From: Escherichia phage T4
Sequence record: NC_000866.4
Strand: one strand, 5' to 3'
DNA: 64,000 nt
Under the pieces are notes generated by a model that made no database searches, was not told the DNA's origin, and worked only from the letters and a program-made list of their open reading frames with translations. Position numbers and translations under genes: made by a program. Of this stretch, positions 27,454 through 33,158 are shown one piece after another (within the stretch, counting starts at the first letter, position 1; the number at the start of each line of letters is the position of its first letter).

Positions 27454-29505
27454 TTATCCTTGAACGAACTTGTAAGGCATGTTTGCAATATCTATGCAAG
27501 ACGCAATAATTCCAAGAGATGATTCTACTTTCTGTTTAACATTTGATGAAACAAATGATGCAAAGTCAACTCTATCTTCTATATCACCTGTCATTGTAAC
27601 CAATTCACCAGTTTCCATTAAATGGTCTCCGTCATAGATTACCGATTCGGTGAGTTCTTCTGTGGTCATAACTTCAGCTTGAATAAGCTTGTTGTTAGTT
27701 TTAACTGTTCCATCATTGTAAGATGCATCGGTTATTTTATTAACTTTGACCATTAATCCACGTGGCAAAATGACTTCCATTTCATTTGAAGGCGCTAAAC
27801 TTCCACCGGGTAAAACAACATTGACCTTATCAGCCCCAGTAATAACCCATCCAATTCCAACTAAATTATCGCTAGAATTTACAAGTCCTTCATCAGTTTT
27901 ATCAATAGAAACGCTTAAACGCTTTTCGTCTGGTAAAACACCTATAGATGAATCAGTCATCCAAGTACCAAAAATATTTGGATATAATGATGTTGACACA
28001 AAGTTTCTAAAATAAAAAACTCGATTTTTTACCATTGCTTCGTATATTGAAGGTAACATTCGTTGTGAACGATACAAAGTAATACCTTTTGGTAATCGTT
28101 CACCATTTTTAAAGGCTGAATCTAAATTATCAATAGCTTTTTCTATGTCAGATGCTGTCAAAATACTTGTACGCTCATCTGGATTATATAATCCCAAAAG
28201 AGCATTATTTATGTCTACATATCCTGAACCTACGTATTCACGAATTCCGCGTTTTTGCGCTGGTGTGTATTTAGATGAATCTTTATTTTCGACTATAGGA
28301 TGTAATGACCATCCAGCGGTAAGAGCATATCCACGTAATTCTCTTCGAATAATCTTTGTTTTTATTGCATTCCAAGAATTTTGTACTAACTCATTTGCAG
28401 CATCTTGGTTTAAATGCGAATGTTTGTTAATATTTCTTTCAAACCAAGCACCCTTATATTTTTCTAAAGTATCATCGACGATAGAAGCAATAGTTTCTAA
28501 GGTTTTTATTGAAGTAATAGATTCTTTTCGTAATCTTTCTAAAGCTTTATTTTTTATTTCTGCGTTAATAATGGATTCTTTATCTTCAGGAATTATAGAA
28601 GCTTCTCTGAATGCCATCCCAGCTGTAACACTGCTAAGAGCATTCTCTAGTGCAAATCCTGAAGTAGAAATTACCGTTAATTCATTAGAATCAGAAATTA
28701 AAGGCGCGTCCGCTGGTTTATTTAATTCGGCCGCTGAAGCCTCAAATTTTTGAAACATTGGTGTTTCAAATCTAGAAGATTCCAATGACTGACTTTGCGC
28801 AATTGCTCTACGGGAAATTTTAACTTTAACGATTACAGCTTGGTCAGAACGTTTATCATTTTCTTGCGCAATAGATGCTGCAATTGCCTCATTTTTAGTT
28901 ACTTGAGCCCCAGTATCTTTATTGATATAAACATCACCGACCTTCGATTCAACTTTAGTAAAGAGCTCGGTACTAATTTCCGGAACTCCTGGAATGTCTT
29001 CTAGTGATACATTTTTGCGATGTATAAGAATATATGCATACTTTTTATCGTAATCCCAGAGTTCCTTAAGAAGGACGTATCTACCACCTGAACGACTACG
29101 GATAAGTCTATCAGCAATAACTTGAATTTGTCGAGCTTGGCCAGCAGTTTTAGACTTAAGAATACGGAGCATACAGGCATCAATTTTATACTGGCGCATT
29201 GTTTGCATTGCAACAGTAAAAACTGAATTGATATAATTAATTGGGCTTGGACCAAGACCTTTTAATTTAGCAATTGAACCTTTAGCAGTTAATGTAAAAG
29301 GAACAATATGCATCATTTTATCGCCCATCTTTAAATCACGATTAGTATCACCTCCAGATGTATAGGTACATAAACGAAAGCCTGGTTGTTCAATTGCATC
29401 ATCAACATGAACTGAAAAAATTTGCGGTATTTTCTTCTTTGGATATAAGTTTGTAATTGGAAGAGTAGTATCTTCGTCAAATAATTCTGTAATAAGTTCC
29501 ATCAT
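27454..29505 (-). CDS. alt: ADP-ribosyltransferase, packaged head protein
   Basis: 683-aa ORF (two consecutive ATG; the second at 29502 gives 682 aa); R / STS / E-x-E triad elements (YRSQR, FVSTSL, NEMEV); TATAAATA on minus strand upstream. Confidence 0.93.
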   Translation of the reverse strand: MMELITELFDEDTTLPITNLYPKKKIPQIFSVHVDDAIEQPGFRLCTYTSGGDTNRDLKMGDKMMHIVPFTLTAKGSIAKLKGLGPSPINYINSVFTVAMQTMRQYKIDACMLRILKSKTAGQARQIQVIADRLIRSRSGGRYVLLKELWDYDKKYAYILIHRKNVSLEDIPGVPEISTELFTKVESKVGDVYINKDTGAQVTKNEAIAASIAQENDKRSDQAVIVKVKISRRAIAQSQSLESSRFETPMFQKFEASAAELNKPADAPLISDSNELTVISTSGFALENALSSVTAGMAFREASIIPEDKESIINAEIKNKALERLRKESITSIKTLETIASIVDDTLEKYKGAWFERNINKHSHLNQDAANELVQNSWNAIKTKIIRRELRGYALTAGWSLHPIVENKDSSKYTPAQKRGIREYVGSGYVDINNALLGLYNPDERTSILTASDIEKAIDNLDSAFKNGERLPKGITLYRSQRMLPSIYEAMVKNRVFYFRNFVSTSLYPNIFGTWMTDSSIGVLPDEKRLSVSIDKTDEGLVNSSDNLVGIGWVITGADKVNVVLPGGSLAPSNEMEVILPRGLMVKVNKITDASYNDGTVKTNNKLIQAEVMTTEELTESVIYDGDHLMETGELVTMTGDIEDRVDFASFVSSNVKQKVESSLGIIASCIDIANMPYKFVQG

Positions 29506-29559: not shown

Positions 29560-29748
29560 TTAATAATCTATTGGTAAGAGAGTACGATATATTTCAAACT
29601 TTGGACCTTTTTCATAAGCATCAAATGTTTCTGTGAATTTATTATAAGCATATGCATCTATAAATTCAATCATGATTTGTGATACAGAAGTAGAAACATC
29701 TCCACCTTCTTTTTGAGCCACGACAATTGTTTCTAAGTAAGCTTTCAT
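29560..29748 (-). CDS. Hypothetical protein (62 aa) between DNA ligase and alt
   Basis: ATG overlaps the ligase stop; no recognisable motif. Confidence 0.6.
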   Translation of the reverse strand: MKAYLETIVVAQKEGGDVSTSVSQIMIEFIDAYAYNKFTETFDAYEKGPKFEIYRTLLPIDY

Positions 29749-31208
29749 AGACCAGTTACCTCATGAAAATCACCAAATACATCTTCGAATGTATTAGCTT
29801 TAGTTTTATCTTCACGTAAACGAATCGCAATCGGAAGAAATAATTTAACGTAATCAGTGCGGCCATCAGATTTTAACCAACCGTTGCATTCGCACTCTAG
29901 AATTTTTCCAATATAATAATTTTGGTTTTCCATAATGCGAGTACGGTCAAGTTCATGCGATTTTACACCGGCTTTATCTTTTAAGCCTGAACCAGCATTT
30001 ACCTTAATTTTTCCACACTCTGACTCAAGAATAAATCCACCCGCTTTAGTAGGGTCTTTACGGTGAGGATAAATTCCTACAATTTTTAAATCAACATCAA
30101 TTACTTCTTTAAATTTATAAAGATTTTTTGAACGAGCATTTTCCCATAATCCATCGATATTTTTGAGAATAATACCTTCAAGACCTTGGTCAATATACTT
30201 TTTATAAATTACCTTAGCTTCATCTAGGTTATTTACTACCTGGTTTTCAATTAAAATTACTTTATCATATCCAGATGTCATTTGTTCTAGTTTAGAAAAA
30301 CGTACATCATATTTCAAACGAAATGCAGGAAGACTGTATATTTCTACCAACGGGACATAATCCCAGACCTGAAACTTCATGCATTGTGCTTCTTTTTCAG
30401 AAATGGTTCCCTTTAAAGATTTATTGGCGATTCCATTAGAAGCAGTACGTGATTCAGCTACTTCGGCGAATTCTTTAGCTTTACTGTTTTCAGGATAAGC
30501 ATCAAAAAGAAAATCTAGGCCTTCTGGCTCCTTTTTAACTTGCTCATGGTATACCAATTCGCCATCAATCAACACACCTTCTGGATGAATCTGGCGGGCT
30601 TCAGCGGTCATTTTAATTAACTCTTCCTTAAGAAGATCTAATCCTAGATATTCATTACCAGCTCGTGATAAAAGACGAACATCATCTAATTCATCACCTC
30701 TAACTTCAGCAAAACACCGAGCTCCATCAGCTTTTAACTGAGCAAAGGCTGGAAATTTGATATTCTTATTAATGCCTTTTTCATCATAAGAACTTGCGAG
30801 CATTTGAGGTTGTTCAGGAATTAAACCTGGCCAAACTTTGTTTGCAATAGATACTGAAGCACCACATTCAAGGTCTCGCATCATCACTCGACGCAAAACT
30901 TCAACATCATCTTTTTTACCATCGGTGATATATCCAGTTAATTCCTCAATTGCTGCATTTCCAGTCAATTTCCGAGTAGCTAATGTGAATTCAATGAAGT
31001 CAAGCATATCGGTAAGAGTCAACATTCCAAAACTCTGGGTAGCAATACCAGGTTTAGGCCATTTCTTGATATAATACTGTAACCCACGAGAATAAGTCAG
31101 ACGATATACTCGTTTAAGCAATTCATTATCTTTATTCTTTTCAAGAATTGCTTGCTTCTGTTTAGTTGAACCAATAGATGCTATTTCGTTCAGAATTTTA
31201 AGAATCAT
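29745..31208 (-). CDS. 30: ATP-dependent DNA ligase
   Basis: 487-aa ORF with adenylation motif I (LKADG); T4 DNA ligase length. Confidence 0.96.
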   Translation of the reverse strand: MILKILNEIASIGSTKQKQAILEKNKDNELLKRVYRLTYSRGLQYYIKKWPKPGIATQSFGMLTLTDMLDFIEFTLATRKLTGNAAIEELTGYITDGKKDDVEVLRRVMMRDLECGASVSIANKVWPGLIPEQPQMLASSYDEKGINKNIKFPAFAQLKADGARCFAEVRGDELDDVRLLSRAGNEYLGLDLLKEELIKMTAEARQIHPEGVLIDGELVYHEQVKKEPEGLDFLFDAYPENSKAKEFAEVAESRTASNGIANKSLKGTISEKEAQCMKFQVWDYVPLVEIYSLPAFRLKYDVRFSKLEQMTSGYDKVILIENQVVNNLDEAKVIYKKYIDQGLEGIILKNIDGLWENARSKNLYKFKEVIDVDLKIVGIYPHRKDPTKAGGFILESECGKIKVNAGSGLKDKAGVKSHELDRTRIMENQNYYIGKILECECNGWLKSDGRTDYVKLFLPIAIRLREDKTKANTFEDVFGDFHEVTGL

Positions 31209-31474
31209 TGTTCATCCTTTAGAGTTTGGTTTACAGCTCTATTATAAATCAATTCATCATTAAGCTCAGTCAAAGACCTGTGGTACGTGGTTCTAACTTT
31301 ATTTCCTTGCATCCAGTGCTTGATATAAATGAAACCTTGCTCTACACATTTTTTAAAAATTCGTTCGTCTTTTTGAGCTCGGAATTCTGGATTGCATCTA
31401 AAAAATTGATTTACGTGACCGTAATCACGTGTAGTATTACCTTCATTTTCATAAATAGTGTGAACAACAAACAT
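31205..31474 (-). CDS. Hypothetical protein (T4 30.x cluster)
   Basis: 89-aa ORF with ATG start overlapping neighbour. Confidence 0.65.
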   Translation of the reverse strand: MFVVHTIYENEGNTTRDYGHVNQFFRCNPEFRAQKDERIFKKCVEQGFIYIKHWMQGNKVRTTYHRSLTELNDELIYNRAVNQTLKDEQ

Positions 31475-32310
31475 TAGAATGCTCCTTGGAAAATATTATC
31501 ACCACAAGTAGGTCTATTATACAAATACTCTATACCGCCGGGCTTAATATAGTTCCATGTCTGAAACGGATGCGTCTGATATGGATGATATGGATTATAA
31601 GGATTAAATCCAGGAGTTCTCCAGGTAGTGTTCCAAGGAAAAGAATCGTTTTTAATCATCTTTTCAATTACATCTTTTATAGCTTTTTCACTATCAAAAC
31701 TTTCTTTATTTTCCTTTGGTGAAAAAAGCTTATTCTCTACATCGTTCCATGTATAAACTCGCTGAGCAGTTTTTGGAATATTGTCACGCTCTCCTCGAGC
31801 CATCCAATACACAGGAACACGTAATATTTCACTCGCGTGATCGCAGTGGTGAGCGAGATCGTCAATATAACAAATTACGTTATATTTCTCTTTTGCTTTT
31901 TTGAACAACTCTTCTTTTGAAGAATCATGACTACACATCAGTACTTCTGAGAAAGCACCAGGAAAAAGAGCATTCAAATTAAATTGACGATTTAATAGAG
32001 CGTCAATAGAATCACCCAATGCTGTAACAGCAACAAAATTATAATCTTCTTTTAATTTGTTAATTACACACAGAGCATCTTTATATGGAGACAAGTAACG
32101 AATAAAATCCGAACGATTGTATTTTTCAATTAACTTGACGCCAAGTTCTTCATCACAGTTAAAGAGTTTACCAGGAGAAATAAATTTCTCATCTTGGATC
32201 ATTTTTAAAATATGTTCTAACGGAAGATTATATTTCTGAGCAAAATAAGGAAGGCCTGATTGCCAGCTTAAACATACTCCATCAATATCAGTTAAAATAG
32301 TAGGCTTCAT
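31474..32310 (-). CDS. HAD-superfamily phosphatase / nucleotidase-like protein (T4 30.x cluster)
   Basis: 278 aa; N-terminal ILTDIDGV matches the HAD motif I (DxDGx); later acidic YIDD resembles the metal-binding motif. Confidence 0.75.
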   Translation of the reverse strand: MKPTILTDIDGVCLSWQSGLPYFAQKYNLPLEHILKMIQDEKFISPGKLFNCDEELGVKLIEKYNRSDFIRYLSPYKDALCVINKLKEDYNFVAVTALGDSIDALLNRQFNLNALFPGAFSEVLMCSHDSSKEELFKKAKEKYNVICYIDDLAHHCDHASEILRVPVYWMARGERDNIPKTAQRVYTWNDVENKLFSPKENKESFDSEKAIKDVIEKMIKNDSFPWNTTWRTPGFNPYNPYHPYQTHPFQTWNYIKPGGIEYLYNRPTCGDNIFQGAF

Positions 32311-32771
32311 AGAGAGTCTCTTAATAGGTTTAACACATCAATAAATTCAGCTTCGGTTAGTATTGTATCATCTTTTGTTAGACCACTAGCAATGCTGTGC
32401 TTCAAAACTTTTCCTTTCGAGGCTTGTAATGCATCACGAAAGCCCTTGTTTTGAATCGCTGCTTCAAAATATGCATTTGTGTATAATTCTTTCCACGCCG
32501 GGGAGTATCTTGAAAACGGAACTCCAAGCCAAAAGAGGGTCCCACGGTCCTGAGCTCTAGCATAAGACCTTCCAGCTTGTTGGGCGGCAAGCCCGGATAA
32601 CCCAAATATACGACGTTGTTGTTCAACATTTTTCACCTTACACCCTTGGAGGAATCCTTCAAGACCTCCAAATTGAATACCATCCATAACGAAAGGCCAT
32701 TGGGCGAAATTACTTAATGCACATGATGGCCACCTAAAATTGCTTCTAATCTCTAACTCAGACATTTTCAA
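32307..32771 (-). CDS. NADAR (YbiA/DUF1768)-like protein (T4 30.x cluster)
   Basis: 154 aa; LSNFAQWPFVMDGIQF...EGFLQGCK resembles the YbiA-family core FSNFAAWPIKVDGKTW...EHYFQAQK. Confidence 0.7.
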   Translation of the reverse strand: MKMSELEIRSNFRWPSCALSNFAQWPFVMDGIQFGGLEGFLQGCKVKNVEQQRRIFGLSGLAAQQAGRSYARAQDRGTLFWLGVPFSRYSPAWKELYTNAYFEAAIQNKGFRDALQASKGKVLKHSIASGLTKDDTILTEAEFIDVLNLLRDSL

Positions 32772-32964
32772 TGCTTATAATTTCAACATCAGCCCAATGA
32801 CCATAGCAAGGAAGACGAAATTCAACTGGCCAGTTAGGGTCCCTTTCTAATATAATAGACTCAACTTGTGGTTCTTCGTGTTCATCAGTATACGGATTTT
32901 TATCTGTTACTTTATATGTGACCTTAATGTACTGAATTCCAAAAATCTTATTAATTATATTCAT
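32758..32964 (-). CDS. Hypothetical protein (T4 30.x cluster)
   Basis: 68-aa ORF, overlapping neighbours. Confidence 0.55.
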   Translation of the reverse strand: MNIINKIFGIQYIKVTYKVTDKNPYTDEHEEPQVESIILERDPNWPVEFRLPCYGHWADVEIISIENV

Positions 32965-33158
32965 ACTAATTCCTTTAATCCGTAGATAGGAGATAATTCA
33001 TCACCCATACGAAGGTCTTCATTTCCATCTACCCAGGAAACAATATAAGCCTCTTTTATTTGAATACCACTCCATTTAAATGGAGGTAGAACCTTAGAAA
33101 TTAATCCAGGTATACCAACTCCCTTTAATTCAACAGTTTGACCTAAAAAGAATTTCAT
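32961..33158 (-). CDS. Hypothetical protein (T4 30.x cluster)
   Basis: 65-aa ORF, overlapping neighbours. Confidence 0.55.
   Translation of the reverse strand: MKFFLGQTVELKGVGIPGLISKVLPPFKWSGIQIKEAYIVSWVDGNEDLRMGDELSPIYGLKELV

What the first reader, a model, noticed from the sequence alone, without database searches (positions are those of the whole stretch)
31474..32310. HAD-superfamily phosphatase-like protein adjacent to the NADAR ORF
The 278-aa ORF opens with the HAD motif I (ILTDIDGV) and has a downstream acidic motif, consistent with a nucleotidase or phosphatase. A nucleotide phosphatase next to a NADAR-like protein suggests a small nucleotide-processing module distinct from the cd/nrd/td/frd dNTP pathway further along.
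Basis: partly seen in the sequence, partly recalled or inferred. Interest (0 to 1): 0.35.

Follow-up and report, generated by a model that had tools for sequence, protein, structure and literature searches.

The report
T4 gene 30.2: nucleotidase-like HAD phosphatase
The ORF is phage T4 gene 30.2, a real but unstudied enzyme of the HAD phosphatase superfamily that most resembles 5'(3')-deoxyribonucleotidases; its constant genomic partner is the DNA ligase gene rather than the NADAR gene, and its floppy tail carries a peptide that looks like a sliding-clamp docking site.

Summary
The window is phage T4, and the 278-aa ORF (31474-32310, minus strand) is gene 30.2, annotated "hypothetical".

- **Fold and motifs:** all four HAD motifs are conserved (D8, D10, T96, K132, D150-D151). 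AlphaFold2 gives a confident HAD core with a helical C1 cap.
- **Family:** Pfam does not hit the T4 protein. A profile of its relatives does reach the 5'(3')-deoxyribonucleotidase (NT5C) family: PDB 3bwv at E=1e-6, and 47 of 129 relatives match PF06941. The aromatic residues W16, F43 and Y64 align with the base-pocket aromatics of cdN.
- **Best reading:** a Mg-dependent nucleoside-monophosphate phosphatase. The physiological substrate is unknown.

The "NADAR module" idea is only weakly supported. Gene 30.3 is the published anti-DarT DNA ADP-ribosylglycohydrolase AdfN, and it accompanies 30.2 in 30 of 64 related loci. DNA ligase accompanies it in 64 of 64.

One new lead came up. The disordered tail contains GIEYLY. 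In the whole T4 genome this pattern otherwise occurs only in the gp45 clamp-binding peptides of gp43, gp55 and DNA ligase. This is untested.

Overall, 30.2 is a divergent member of a known enzyme class, with one intriguing feature.

The parts
31474..32310 (-). T4 gene 30.2 CDS (278 aa plus TAA stop)
   Evidence: ORF list; 100% identical to T4T gene 30.2; 1451 phage records carry a homologue.
32275..32298 (-). HAD motif I, ILTDIDGV (residues 5-12). D8 is the predicted nucleophile and D10 the acid/base.
   Evidence: D8, D10 and G11 are invariant in A1. D8 and D10 are invariant in 129 distant representatives.
32083..32271 (-). C1 cap, a four-helix insertion (residues 14-76). It carries W16 (32263-32265), F43 (32182-32184) and Y64 (32119-32121).
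   Evidence: AF2 helices 16-26, 32-40, 46-50 and 54-65 with pLDDT >90. W16 and Y64 are invariant and F43 >=90% conserved. They align to F20, F46 and Y67 of mouse cdN 2jao.
32023..32025 (-). HAD motif II, T96
   Evidence: >=90% conserved in A1; Ser in two sequences.
31978..31989 (-). R108-x-x-N111, a family signature on the helix after motif II
   Evidence: R108 is invariant and N111 >=90% conserved in 129 representatives. R108 aligns to a Lys of 3bwv.
31915..31917 (-). HAD motif III, K132
   Evidence: Invariant in A1 and A2.
31858..31863 (-). HAD motif IV, D150-D151 (Mg2+ ligands)
   Evidence: Codons GAC GAT read. Both >=90% conserved in A1; D151 >=90% in A2.
31477..31719 (-). C-terminal extension (residues 198-278), P/W/Y/N-rich. 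One confident helix at 207-220, then disordered from about residue 224.
   Evidence: pLDDT <50 for 227-278 in two AF2 runs. Absent or different in many homologues of about 200 aa.
31507..31539 (-). Conserved tail peptide G-G-I-E-Y-L-Y-N-R-P-T (residues 258-268); candidate gp45 sliding-clamp-binding motif
   Evidence: E261, Y262 and T268 are invariant in 18 tail-bearing homologues. The only helix AF2 places in this part of the tail is 260-264. Genome-wide motif scan.
32307..32310 (-). ATGA overlap: stop codon of 30.3 and start codon of 30.2 (translational coupling)
   Evidence: Coordinates, sequence.
31472..31476 (-). TAATG overlap: stop codon of 30.2 and start codon of 30.1
   Evidence: Coordinates, sequence.
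32307..32771 (-). Upstream neighbour, gene 30.3 = adfN (NADAR DNA ADP-ribosylglycohydrolase)
   Evidence: Pfam PF08010 at 5e-71; PMC11825919.
31205..31474 (-). Downstream neighbour, gene 30.1 (DUF3045, function unknown)
   Evidence: Pfam PF11243 at 1e-64. Found beside 30.2 homologues in 24 of 64 loci.
29745..31208 (-). Gene 30, DNA ligase. Its gp45-binding LDFLF (residues 231-235) lies at 30504-30518.
   Evidence: Annotation. Adjacent to the 30.2 homologue in 64 of 64 loci. The loop binds gp45 with Kd about 10.7 uM (PMC6212786).

Best explanation
gp30.2 is a catalytically competent, Mg2+-dependent phosphomonoesterase of HAD subfamily IA.

- **Chemistry:** Asp8 attacks the substrate phosphate to form an aspartyl-phosphate intermediate. 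Asp10 acts as general acid/base. Thr96, Lys132 and probably Arg108 hold the phosphate. Asp150 and Asp151 bind Mg2+.
- **Substrate:** the four-helix cap closes over the site. Like the related 5'(3')-deoxyribonucleotidases, it offers an aromatic slot (W16, F43, Y64) for a nucleobase. The substrate is therefore most likely a (deoxy)nucleoside monophosphate or a close analogue.
- **Expression:** the gene is translationally coupled within the run 30.3(adfN)-30.2-30.1-30(ligase).
- **Tail:** the tail is an optional appendage for protein docking.

Shown here: the fold, motif conservation, relatedness to NT5C and the synteny. Inferred: the catalytic activity, the nucleotide substrate and the role of the tail.
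For: - **HAD motifs:** motifs I-IV are invariant or nearly so across 35 close and 129 distant relatives.
- **Profile searches:** the A1 profile has cdN 2jao as its best PDB hit. DGVLxxWxSGL aligns to DGVLADFESGL, and F43 and Y64 fall on cdN F46 and Y67. The A2 profile gives 3bwv 'putative 5'(3')-deoxyribonucleotidase' at E=1.4e-6 over its full length, followed by mdN/cdN.
- **Pfam on relatives:** PF06941 NT5C is the commonest family among relatives (47 of 129, best 4e-10). Relatives of P0200 carry PF06941 in the precomputed annotation.
- **Phage precedents:** BFVD neighbours include phage proteins named '5' nucleotidase'. A characterised phage PF06941 enzyme exists, the PBS1 dTMP phosphatase (PMC12697855).
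- **General principle:** HAD 5'-nucleotidases bind the base by aromatic stacking from the cap (PMC3946280).
- **Charge:** the core is acidic (pI 5.8; family median 5.4), which suits a small-molecule enzyme.
Against: - The T4 protein itself matches no Pfam, NCBIfam or PADLOC model, so the NT5C link is transitive.
- T4 has no obvious need for a nucleotidase: it recycles dNMPs and replaces no base other than C, and the gene also occurs in T4-like phages without hmC.
- The role of cdN F18, F44 and Y65 in base binding is recalled from Wallden et al. 2007, not read here.
- The constant ligase neighbour and the clamp-like tail motif hint at an activity on DNA instead.
- No assay or phenotype for 30.2 was found in the searchable literature.
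Confidence: 0.6

Rival explanations
1. gp30.2 is a DNA-end-cleaning phosphatase. It would remove 3'-phosphates (or similar blocking groups) at nicks so that the neighbouring DNA ligase can seal them, working on the gp45 clamp.
For: - Ligase lies next to the gene in 64 of 64 loci, and is still within 700 bp in the rearranged locus L002.
- The tail peptide GIEYLY resembles the gp45-binding LDFLF/LDFLY of ligase, gp43 and gp55.
- Distant homologues sit beside RNase H, a clamp loader and an exonuclease.
- One homologue is fused to a Pol-beta-like nucleotidyltransferase.
Against: - By established HAD classification (Burroughs et al. 2006, recalled), HAD enzymes that act on macromolecule ends, such as Pnk and PNKP, are capless. 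This protein has a full C1 cap.
- T4 already has the Pnk 3'-phosphatase (pseT).
- The core is acidic.
- Many homologues lack any tail.
- Ligase adjacency is lost in PA5oct, the Vibrio phage and DLP6, so it may simply be inherited synteny.
Confidence: 0.13
2. The first reader's module: gp30.2 processes an ADP-ribose-derived phosphate ester (ADP-ribose phosphate, ribose-5-phosphate or AMP) downstream of NADAR/AdfN. It might be the unknown T-even factor that AdfN needs.
For: - 30.3 and 30.2 overlap by ATGA in T4.
- AdfN from T4 works fully only in T-even infections, and the authors suspect an additional T-even protein (PMC11825919).
- RB69, which is rescued by AdfN from T4, has a 30.2 homologue.
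- T4 also encodes Alt, ModA, ModB, a macro-domain protein and the Nudix NudE, which is active on ADP-ribose.
Against: - NADAR is present in only 30 of 64 loci and is often not adjacent.
- It is absent around the distant homologues.
- Removing ADP-ribose from guanine needs no phosphatase.
- Purified AdfN alone de-ADP-ribosylates DNA in vitro.
- About a hundred other T-even-specific genes are equally eligible as the missing factor.
Confidence: 0.07
3. gp30.2 is a phosphatase (or phosphomutase) for a non-nucleotide small molecule, such as a sugar phosphate, phosphoglycolate or a flavin/riboflavin intermediate.
For: - NCBIfam gives only HAD-IA-type models for relatives.
- One metagenome annotator named a homologue 'FMN phosphatase YigB', and a BFVD neighbour is named phosphoglycolate phosphatase.
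Against: - The sequence-level affinity is specifically to NT5C: the best PDB profile hits and the commonest Pfam family among relatives.
- The cap aromatics that align with the cdN pocket residues are conserved.
- Those names are automatic annotations.
Confidence: 0.15
4. The chemistry is as in the best explanation, but the role is counter-defence. The enzyme would destroy a nucleotide that acts as an alarm or toxin for the host, for example modified dNMPs released from degraded host DNA.
For: - The gene lies in a stretch with known counter-defence genes (adfN, alt).
- In L133 a homologue lies two genes from Acb1.
- m6-dAMP from T-even-induced host DNA breakdown triggers the PUA-Cal-HAD defence (PMC12871103).
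- Phage dNMP phosphatases reshape pools that defences sense (T5 Dmp and Clover; PMC12265719).
Against: - T2 carries 30.2 yet is restricted by PUA-Cal-HAD. T4's escape is attributed to Arn.
- There is no PADLOC or anti-defence annotation.
- The gene is far more conserved than typical anti-defence genes.
Confidence: 0.12

Closest known systems
5'(3')-deoxyribonucleotidases cdN/mdN (NT5C, NT5M; Pfam PF06941) and the bacterial homologue PDB 3bwv
   Same: HAD-IA core with a four-helix C1 cap. Motif I is DxDGVL followed by an aromatic residue eight positions after the nucleophile. Cap aromatics sit at aligned positions (W16, F43, Y64 against F20, F46, Y67 of mouse cdN). A basic residue lies 12-13 positions after motif II. 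Motifs K and DD are present, and the domain length is similar at about 195 aa.
   Different: The T4 protein does not reach any Pfam NT5C score. Identity is 14-19%. It has W instead of F at the first stacking position and R instead of K after motif II. It carries its own invariant signature (S18, S67, N111, FPxAF 116-120, R172) and an 80-residue tail. Its activity is untested.
PBS1 Dtm, a phage dTMP phosphatase of PF06941 (PMC12697855)
   Same: A phage-encoded, Mg-dependent nucleotidase of the HAD/NT5C type that remodels the dNMP pool.
   Different: Dtm serves the replacement of thymine by uracil. T4-like phages with 30.2 replace no thymine, and many replace no base at all. No sequence comparison was made here.
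T5 Dmp, deoxynucleoside 5'-monophosphatase
   Same: An early phage enzyme that dephosphorylates dNMPs released from host DNA (cited in PMC12265719).
   Different: No T5-like phage appeared among the listed genera or records of the 1451 tblastn matches to 30.2. The resemblance is in function, not in family.
T4 polynucleotide kinase/3'-phosphatase (PseT), HAD phosphatase domain
   Different: The Pnk phosphatase domain is capless and acts on nucleic-acid 3' ends. gp30.2 has a full C1 cap and no kinase domain.
gp45 sliding-clamp-binding peptides of T4 gp43 (SLDFLFG), gp55 (SLDFLYEAND), gp33 (TLDFLL) and DNA ligase (GLDFLFD)
   Same: The tail peptide GIEYLY has the same pattern: small, aliphatic, acidic, aromatic, Leu, aromatic. 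It lies in a disordered segment and is predicted helical, as the ligase peptide is when bound to gp45. Natural gp55 variants include LEFLY and LDYLY.
   Different: Ile, Glu and Tyr replace Leu, Asp and Phe. The last aromatic is not conserved among homologues, which have N, T, M and others there. A conserved QPT follows. Some close T4 relatives have a degenerate version, GDAGYF. Binding to gp45 is untested.

Membership tests
HAD (haloacid dehalogenase-like) superfamily, phosphatase type | Motif I hhhhDxDx[TV], with nucleophile Asp and a second Asp two residues on | tested here: met
   ILTDIDGV; D8 and D10 are invariant in 129 representatives.
HAD (haloacid dehalogenase-like) superfamily, phosphatase type | Motif II Thr/Ser, motif III Lys, motif IV DD, in the canonical order and spacing | tested here: met
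   T96 (S in two sequences), K132 invariant, D150-D151. Each lies at the end of a core strand in the AF2 model.
HAD (haloacid dehalogenase-like) superfamily, phosphatase type | Rossmann-like alpha/beta core fold | tested here: met
HAD (haloacid dehalogenase-like) superfamily, phosphatase type | Mg2+-dependent phosphoryl transfer through an aspartyl-phosphate intermediate | not testable with these tools
   Needs an enzyme assay and a D8N control.
HAD subfamily I (C1 cap) | Helical cap inserted directly after motif I, between strand 1 and the next core helix | tested here: met
   Four helices at residues 16-65. Relatives match TIGR01509 HAD-IA weakly.
5'(3')-deoxyribonucleotidase family (NT5C, Pfam PF06941) | Match to the family model at or above its curated threshold | tested here: not met
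   No Pfam hit for the T4 protein even at E<=1. By contrast, 47 of 129 relatives match PF06941 at E<=0.01 (best 4e-10). The family profile hits 3bwv at 1.4e-6 and mdN/cdN at 0.004-0.1. The homology is therefore transitive.
5'(3')-deoxyribonucleotidase family (NT5C, Pfam PF06941) | Aromatic residues from motif I+8 and from the cap that sandwich the nucleobase | tested here: inconclusive
   W16, F43 and Y64 are conserved and align with F20, F46 and Y67 of mouse cdN. That these cdN residues contact the base is recalled from the literature. No ligand-bound model was made.
5'(3')-deoxyribonucleotidase family (NT5C, Pfam PF06941) | Hydrolysis of 5'- and 3'-(deoxy)nucleoside monophosphates | not testable with these tools
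   No assay of gp30.2 was found in the literature searches.
gp45 sliding-clamp client proteins of T4 | A short [S/T/G]-L-D-F-L-[F/Y/L]-type peptide in a disordered terminus or loop | tested here: inconclusive
   GIEYLY (259-264) lies in a tail with pLDDT <50. The conservative pattern has 4 hits in all T4 ORFs, namely gp43, gp55, ligase and gp30.2, against 0.38 expected. The pattern was defined after seeing the peptide.
gp45 sliding-clamp client proteins of T4 | Physical binding to gp45 | not testable with these tools
   gp45 lies outside the window, so it could not be submitted for structure prediction. ITC or pull-down is needed.
   NADAR is present in 30 of 64 loci, against ligase in 64 of 64. 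It is absent near the distant homologues.

The most novel reading that the evidence does not exclude
gp30.2 would be a previously unrecognised client of the T4 sliding clamp. Its disordered tail peptide G-I-E-Y-L-Y would dock into the same hydrophobic pocket of gp45 as LDFLF of DNA ligase and LDFL[FY] of gp43 and gp55. This would station a nucleotidase-like HAD phosphatase at replication forks or nicks, next to the ligase with which it is always co-encoded. Other lineages would achieve the same with PIP-like tail ends such as DLRAYYGE, SALRASF and EEIFNGFF. A clamp-tethered phosphatase has no described counterpart in phage replication. It would imply either nick or end cleaning, or local destruction of nucleotides released at the fork.
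Probability: 0.4. Interest if true: 0.7.

Novelty: new member of a known kind. Interest (0 to 1): 0.42.

Why it matters
Gene 30.2 is one of the more widely conserved "hypothetical" genes of T4-like phages. It is found in 1451 phage records, and its family spans 1452 clusters at 50% identity.

Assigning it to the NT5C-like HAD phosphatases gives a concrete, cheap assay for a dark-matter gene of the best-studied phage. It also corrects the tempting idea that it is a partner of the anti-DarT NADAR enzyme.

If the tail really binds gp45, T4 would gain a fifth clamp client. That would raise a new question: why is a phosphatase needed at the fork beside ligase? The answer would bear on Okazaki-fragment maturation, nucleotide sanitation and phage-host conflicts over nucleotide pools.

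Tried and rejected
- **Direct family scans:** Pfam, NCBIfam and PADLOC scans of the T4 protein gave nothing. phmmer against PDB gave only noise.
- **Promoter and terminator scan of 29.5-35.3 kb:** no better than shuffles, so no transcription claims are made beyond the overlapping stop and start codons.
- **AFDB50 fold library:** unavailable.
- **Literature:** Miller et al. 2003 is not held. Searches for 'gp30.2', '30.2' with T4, '30.2' with core genes and '30.2' with gp45 found nothing on this gene.
- **Fusion partners:** the N-terminus of P0151 is a Pol-beta-like NTase of unknown function. The extra domains of P0140 and P0210 gave no hits.
- **Covariation test:** I tested whether the type of 30.2 tail motif tracks the type of ligase-loop motif in the same phage. 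By my reading of the pairs listed it does not do so cleanly (about half agree). gp55 keeps L[DE][FY]LY in nearly all of these phages, so this test cannot discriminate.
- **Replication of the genome-wide scan:** the scan of Klebsiella phage Roth34 was uninformative. That phage has a different tail class (NDWWNN), and the shorter 5-residue pattern is no more frequent than chance there.
- **AF2 with tail-bearing homologues only:** the tail did not dock onto the core, so an intramolecular role is not supported.
- **Pseudo-enzyme idea:** rejected, because every catalytic residue is invariant.
Full report
**What is there.** The window is bacteriophage T4. Bases 31000-33000 are 100% identical to T4T 127017-129017. 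The ORF at 31474-32310 on the minus strand encodes 278 aa and is T4 gene 30.2, annotated "hypothetical protein".

The gene lies in a run of minus-strand genes:
- alt (27454-29505)
- alt.1
- gene 30, DNA ligase (29745-31208)
- 30.1 (31205-31474; DUF3045)
- 30.2
- 30.3 (32307-32771; Pfam Phage_30_3)
- 30.4 to 30.9, rIII, 31, cd and pseT further upstream

The 30.3 stop codon overlaps the 30.2 start codon (ATGA, 32307-32310). The 30.2 stop overlaps the 30.1 start (TAATG, 31472-31476), and 30.1 overlaps gene 30. These four genes therefore look translationally coupled. A consensus promoter and terminator scan was no better than shuffled sequence, so I make no promoter claims.

**Checking the observation.** The protein starts MKPTILTDIDGV, and the acidic motif is D150-D151. 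An alignment of 35 homologues (A1) shows these residues as invariant:
- D8, D10, G11, W16, S18, Y64, S67
- R108, N111, F116, P117, A119, F120
- K132, R172

T96, D150, D151 and F43 are at least 90% conserved. An exhaustive profile search of 1.84 billion representatives found 1452 clusters at E<=1e-3. In 129 of them, down to about 22% identity (A2), D8, D10, R108 and K132 are still invariant. V12, W16, N111 and D151 are at least 90% conserved. All four HAD motifs are thus present and under strong constraint. The DxD form of motif I is the phosphotransferase type, not the dehalogenase type (established HAD knowledge).

**Fold.** AlphaFold2 with A1 gives pLDDT above 90 for residues 1-200. The model has a Rossmann-like core and four helices (16-26, 32-40, 46-50, 54-65) inserted right after motif I, which is a C1 cap.
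- Foldseek against PDB returns HAD enzymes at E about 1e-8. The lowest rmsd and best target-normalised TM-scores are for cytosolic and mitochondrial 5'(3')-deoxyribonucleotidases (2jao, 2i7d, 4yih) and for the deoxyribonucleotidase-like protein 3bwv.
- Among predicted viral structures, the neighbours are phage proteins of about 195-200 aa, several of them named "5' nucleotidase".

**Which HAD family.** The T4 protein matches no Pfam model even at E<=1. It also matches no NCBIfam model and no PADLOC model. In PHROGs it falls in phrog_420 (unknown function), with a weak hit to polynucleotide kinase.

Profiles reach further.
- The A1 profile has mouse cdN (2jao) as its best PDB hit, at E=0.019. 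DGVLvkWqSGL aligns to DGVLADFESGL, the conserved F43 to cdN F46, and Y64 to cdN Y67.
- The wider A2 profile hits 3bwv at E=1.4e-6 over its full length. R108 falls on a Lys there. mdN and cdN follow at 0.004-0.1.
- When the 129 relatives are scanned one by one, PF06941 (NT5C) is the commonest Pfam family: 47 members, best 4e-10. The generic Hydrolase (24) and HAD_2 (22) models come next.
- Two relatives of the distant member P0200 carry PF06941 in the precomputed annotation.

From memory of Wallden et al. 2007, human cdN F18, F44 and Y65 (mouse F20, F46, Y67) line the base pocket. That HAD 5'-nucleotidases hold the base by aromatic stacking from the cap is stated in PMC3946280.

I therefore read gp30.2 as a divergent NT5C-like nucleotidase. 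It is not a member by Pfam's own threshold; the homology is transitive. A characterised phage enzyme of PF06941 exists, the PBS1 dTMP phosphatase (PMC12697855). Some GenBank annotators already call homologues "putative phosphatase", "5' nucleotidase" or "HAD-like", so the domain assignment itself is not new.

**The NADAR idea.** Gene 30.3 is the published AdfN, a NADAR DNA ADP-ribosylglycohydrolase that removes DarT1 modifications from phage DNA (PMC11825919). That paper notes that AdfN from T4 works fully only in T-even infections, and it suspects an extra T-even protein. This keeps a link to 30.2 formally possible.

The comparative data argue against a module. I examined 64 loci that carry a 30.2 homologue by tblastn.
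- DNA ligase lies within a few hundred bases in 64 of 64.
- 30.3 is present in 30 of 64, and in the RB43-like group it is not adjacent.
- 30.1 is present in 24 of 64.

In the most divergent T4-like locus (L002, 39% identity) the order is rearranged: PhoH, ligase, two ORFs, then the HAD gene. Ligase is still close and no NADAR gene is present. Outside this group the ligase link is also lost:
- In PA5oct the gene abuts PhoH.
- In a KVP40-like Vibrio phage it lies among NAD-salvage genes.
- In Stenotrophomonas DLP6 it lies between RNase H and PhoH.
- In L131 it overlaps the end of a clamp-loader-like AAA+ gene, with PhoH nearby.
- In L133 it follows RNase H and a second NT5C-like gene, and precedes PhoH and Acb1.

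The ligase adjacency may therefore be inherited synteny. The recurrent company of replication and lagging-strand genes and of PhoH is still noteworthy.

**The tail.** Residues 198-278 are absent from many homologues of about 200 aa and are otherwise highly variable. AF2 predicts disorder from about residue 224 in both runs, except for a short helix at 260-264.

Among 18 tail-bearing homologues down to 49% identity, the tail has two conserved islands. One is W230-x-x-P. The other is G-[IVLT]-E-Y-[LWY]-x-x-[QR]-P-T, in which E261, Y262 and T268 are invariant.

GIEYLY resembles the gp45 sliding-clamp-binding peptides of T4. I read these from the genome: gp43 ends ASLDFLFG, gp55 ends PSLDFLYEAND and gp33 ends TLDFLL. 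The ligase loop EPEGLDFLFD binds gp45 with Kd 10.7 uM as an alpha-helix, through L231, F233, L234 and F235 (PMC6212786).

I assembled the whole T4 genome (plus the window). The conservative pattern [GSAT][ILVM][DE][FYW]L[FYW] occurs four times in 69,367 residues of ORFs: in gp43, gp55, ligase and gp30.2. Residue-shuffled ORFs give a mean of 0.38.

In 40 other T4-like phages the gp55 terminus is nearly always x-L-[DE]-[FY]-L-Y, with variants LEFLY and LDYLY. A few divergent phages have forms such as LSFLF or LDSFY. This holds even where the ligase loop is of the LDDIF or LFGMF type. IEYLY is thus one conservative step from natural variants. Other tail classes of 30.2 homologues end in PIP-like h-x-x-aromatic-aromatic peptides: DLRAYYGE, TLKAYY, SALRASF and EEIFNGFF.

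Caveats:
- The pattern was defined after I saw the peptide.
- The final aromatic is not conserved.
- Some close T4 relatives have a degenerate GDAGYF.
- Many homologues lack a tail.
- A replication attempt in Klebsiella phage Roth34 was uninformative, because that phage has another tail class.

I put clamp binding at about 0.4.

**Mechanism and rivals.** The best-supported reading (0.6) is a Mg-dependent nucleoside-monophosphate phosphatase that works through an Asp8 phospho-intermediate, with the capped active site selecting a nucleotide.

The C1 cap and the acidic core (pI 5.8) argue against direct action on DNA ends. T4 also already has the Pnk 3'-phosphatase. The ligase synteny, the clamp-like tail and one fusion keep a nick-cleaning role alive (0.13). 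That fusion joins a 30.2-like domain to a Pol-beta-like nucleotidyltransferase, which also occurs free-standing near the HAD gene in L002 (31% identity, E=2e-54).

The other rivals are a non-nucleotide small-molecule substrate (0.15), a counter-defence role for the same chemistry (0.12) and the NADAR-partner idea (0.07). Why T4-like phages, which recycle dNMPs, keep a nucleotidase remains unexplained.

**Verdict.** The HAD and nucleotidase reading is supported by fold and profile evidence, and the NADAR-module reading is not. This is a divergent, uncharacterised member of a known enzyme class. It has one unexpected and testable feature, the candidate clamp-binding tail.

Noticed in passing
window 31507-31539 (30.2 residues 258-268); window 30504-30518 (ligase LDFLF): The tail peptide GGIEYLYNRPT fits the gp45 clamp-binding pattern. 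A scan of the whole T4 genome finds that pattern only in gp43, gp55, DNA ligase and gp30.2 (4 hits against 0.38 expected).
   Followed up: partly
window 31615-31635 (30.2 residues about 226-232): There is a second conserved island in the otherwise variable tail, (F)P-x-x-W-[RKV]-x-P-[GD], with W230 at least 90% conserved in tail-bearing homologues. No partner or role is known.
   Followed up: no
L002 2999-3826, L066 5665-6438, L068 6045-6752, L131 9115-9873, L133 3112-3849: In five divergent phage contexts outside the T-even group, a PhoH-like ATPase gene lies within about 0.1-2.2 kb of the 30.2-like HAD gene. T4 itself has no PhoH.
   Followed up: partly
P0151 (591 aa); L002 7333-8379: A Pol-beta-like nucleotidyltransferase (phrog_24943, annotated 'DNA polymerase') is fused N-terminally to a 30.2-like HAD domain in P0151. 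The same family is free-standing three genes downstream of the HAD gene in L002 (31% identity, E=2e-54). It also occurs in Stenotrophomonas, Xanthomonas and Acinetobacter ME3 phages.
   Followed up: partly
L131 6085-7585; L133 432-2799: A distant homologue overlaps the 3' end of a clamp-loader-like AAA+ gene (Rad17/DNA_pol3_delta2). Another follows T4-type RNase H and a second, shorter NT5C-like gene in tandem, two genes away from Acb1.
   Followed up: no
ligase genes of L004-L065, aligned to T4 ligase residues 216-252: The gp45-binding loop of the ligase exists in nearly all T4-like phages, but its motif varies widely: LDFLF, LGFLF, LFSMF, LFGMF, LDDIF, LDDMF, LDHLF, IEWMM, FSLAGFM and DLSWLL. 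gp55 keeps L[DE][FY]LY in nearly all of them.
   Followed up: partly
P0012 (302 aa, 1.4-kb contig): This is an apparent read-through fusion of a 30.2 homologue with the downstream 30.1 (DUF3045) protein. The sequence also has G11D, so it may be an assembly or frameshift artefact rather than a true fusion.
   Followed up: no
L003 5702-6004: In a 179-kb T4-like contig, a 30.1-like gene (phrog_2054, weak DUF3045) lies upstream of the HAD gene instead of downstream, and no NADAR gene is present.
   Followed up: no
L067 (Vibrio phage 6E35-1b) 1919-5576: The distant homologue in a KVP40-like phage sits beside nicotinamide phosphoribosyltransferase genes (NAD salvage) and radical-SAM genes, which hints at a different substrate there. 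The record holds two matching places.
   Followed up: no
window 32402-32629: T4T annotates 30.3', an internal ORF in another frame inside adfN (75 aa in the ORF list). It was not examined.
   Followed up: no
T4 genome outside the window (L071 16911-17378 and 23016-23471): T4 also encodes Tk.4, which carries an 'A1pp phosphatase' (macro-domain) note, and the Nudix NudE, active on ADP-ribose. Together with Alt, ModA, ModB and AdfN they form a dispersed ADP-ribose toolkit.
   Followed up: no
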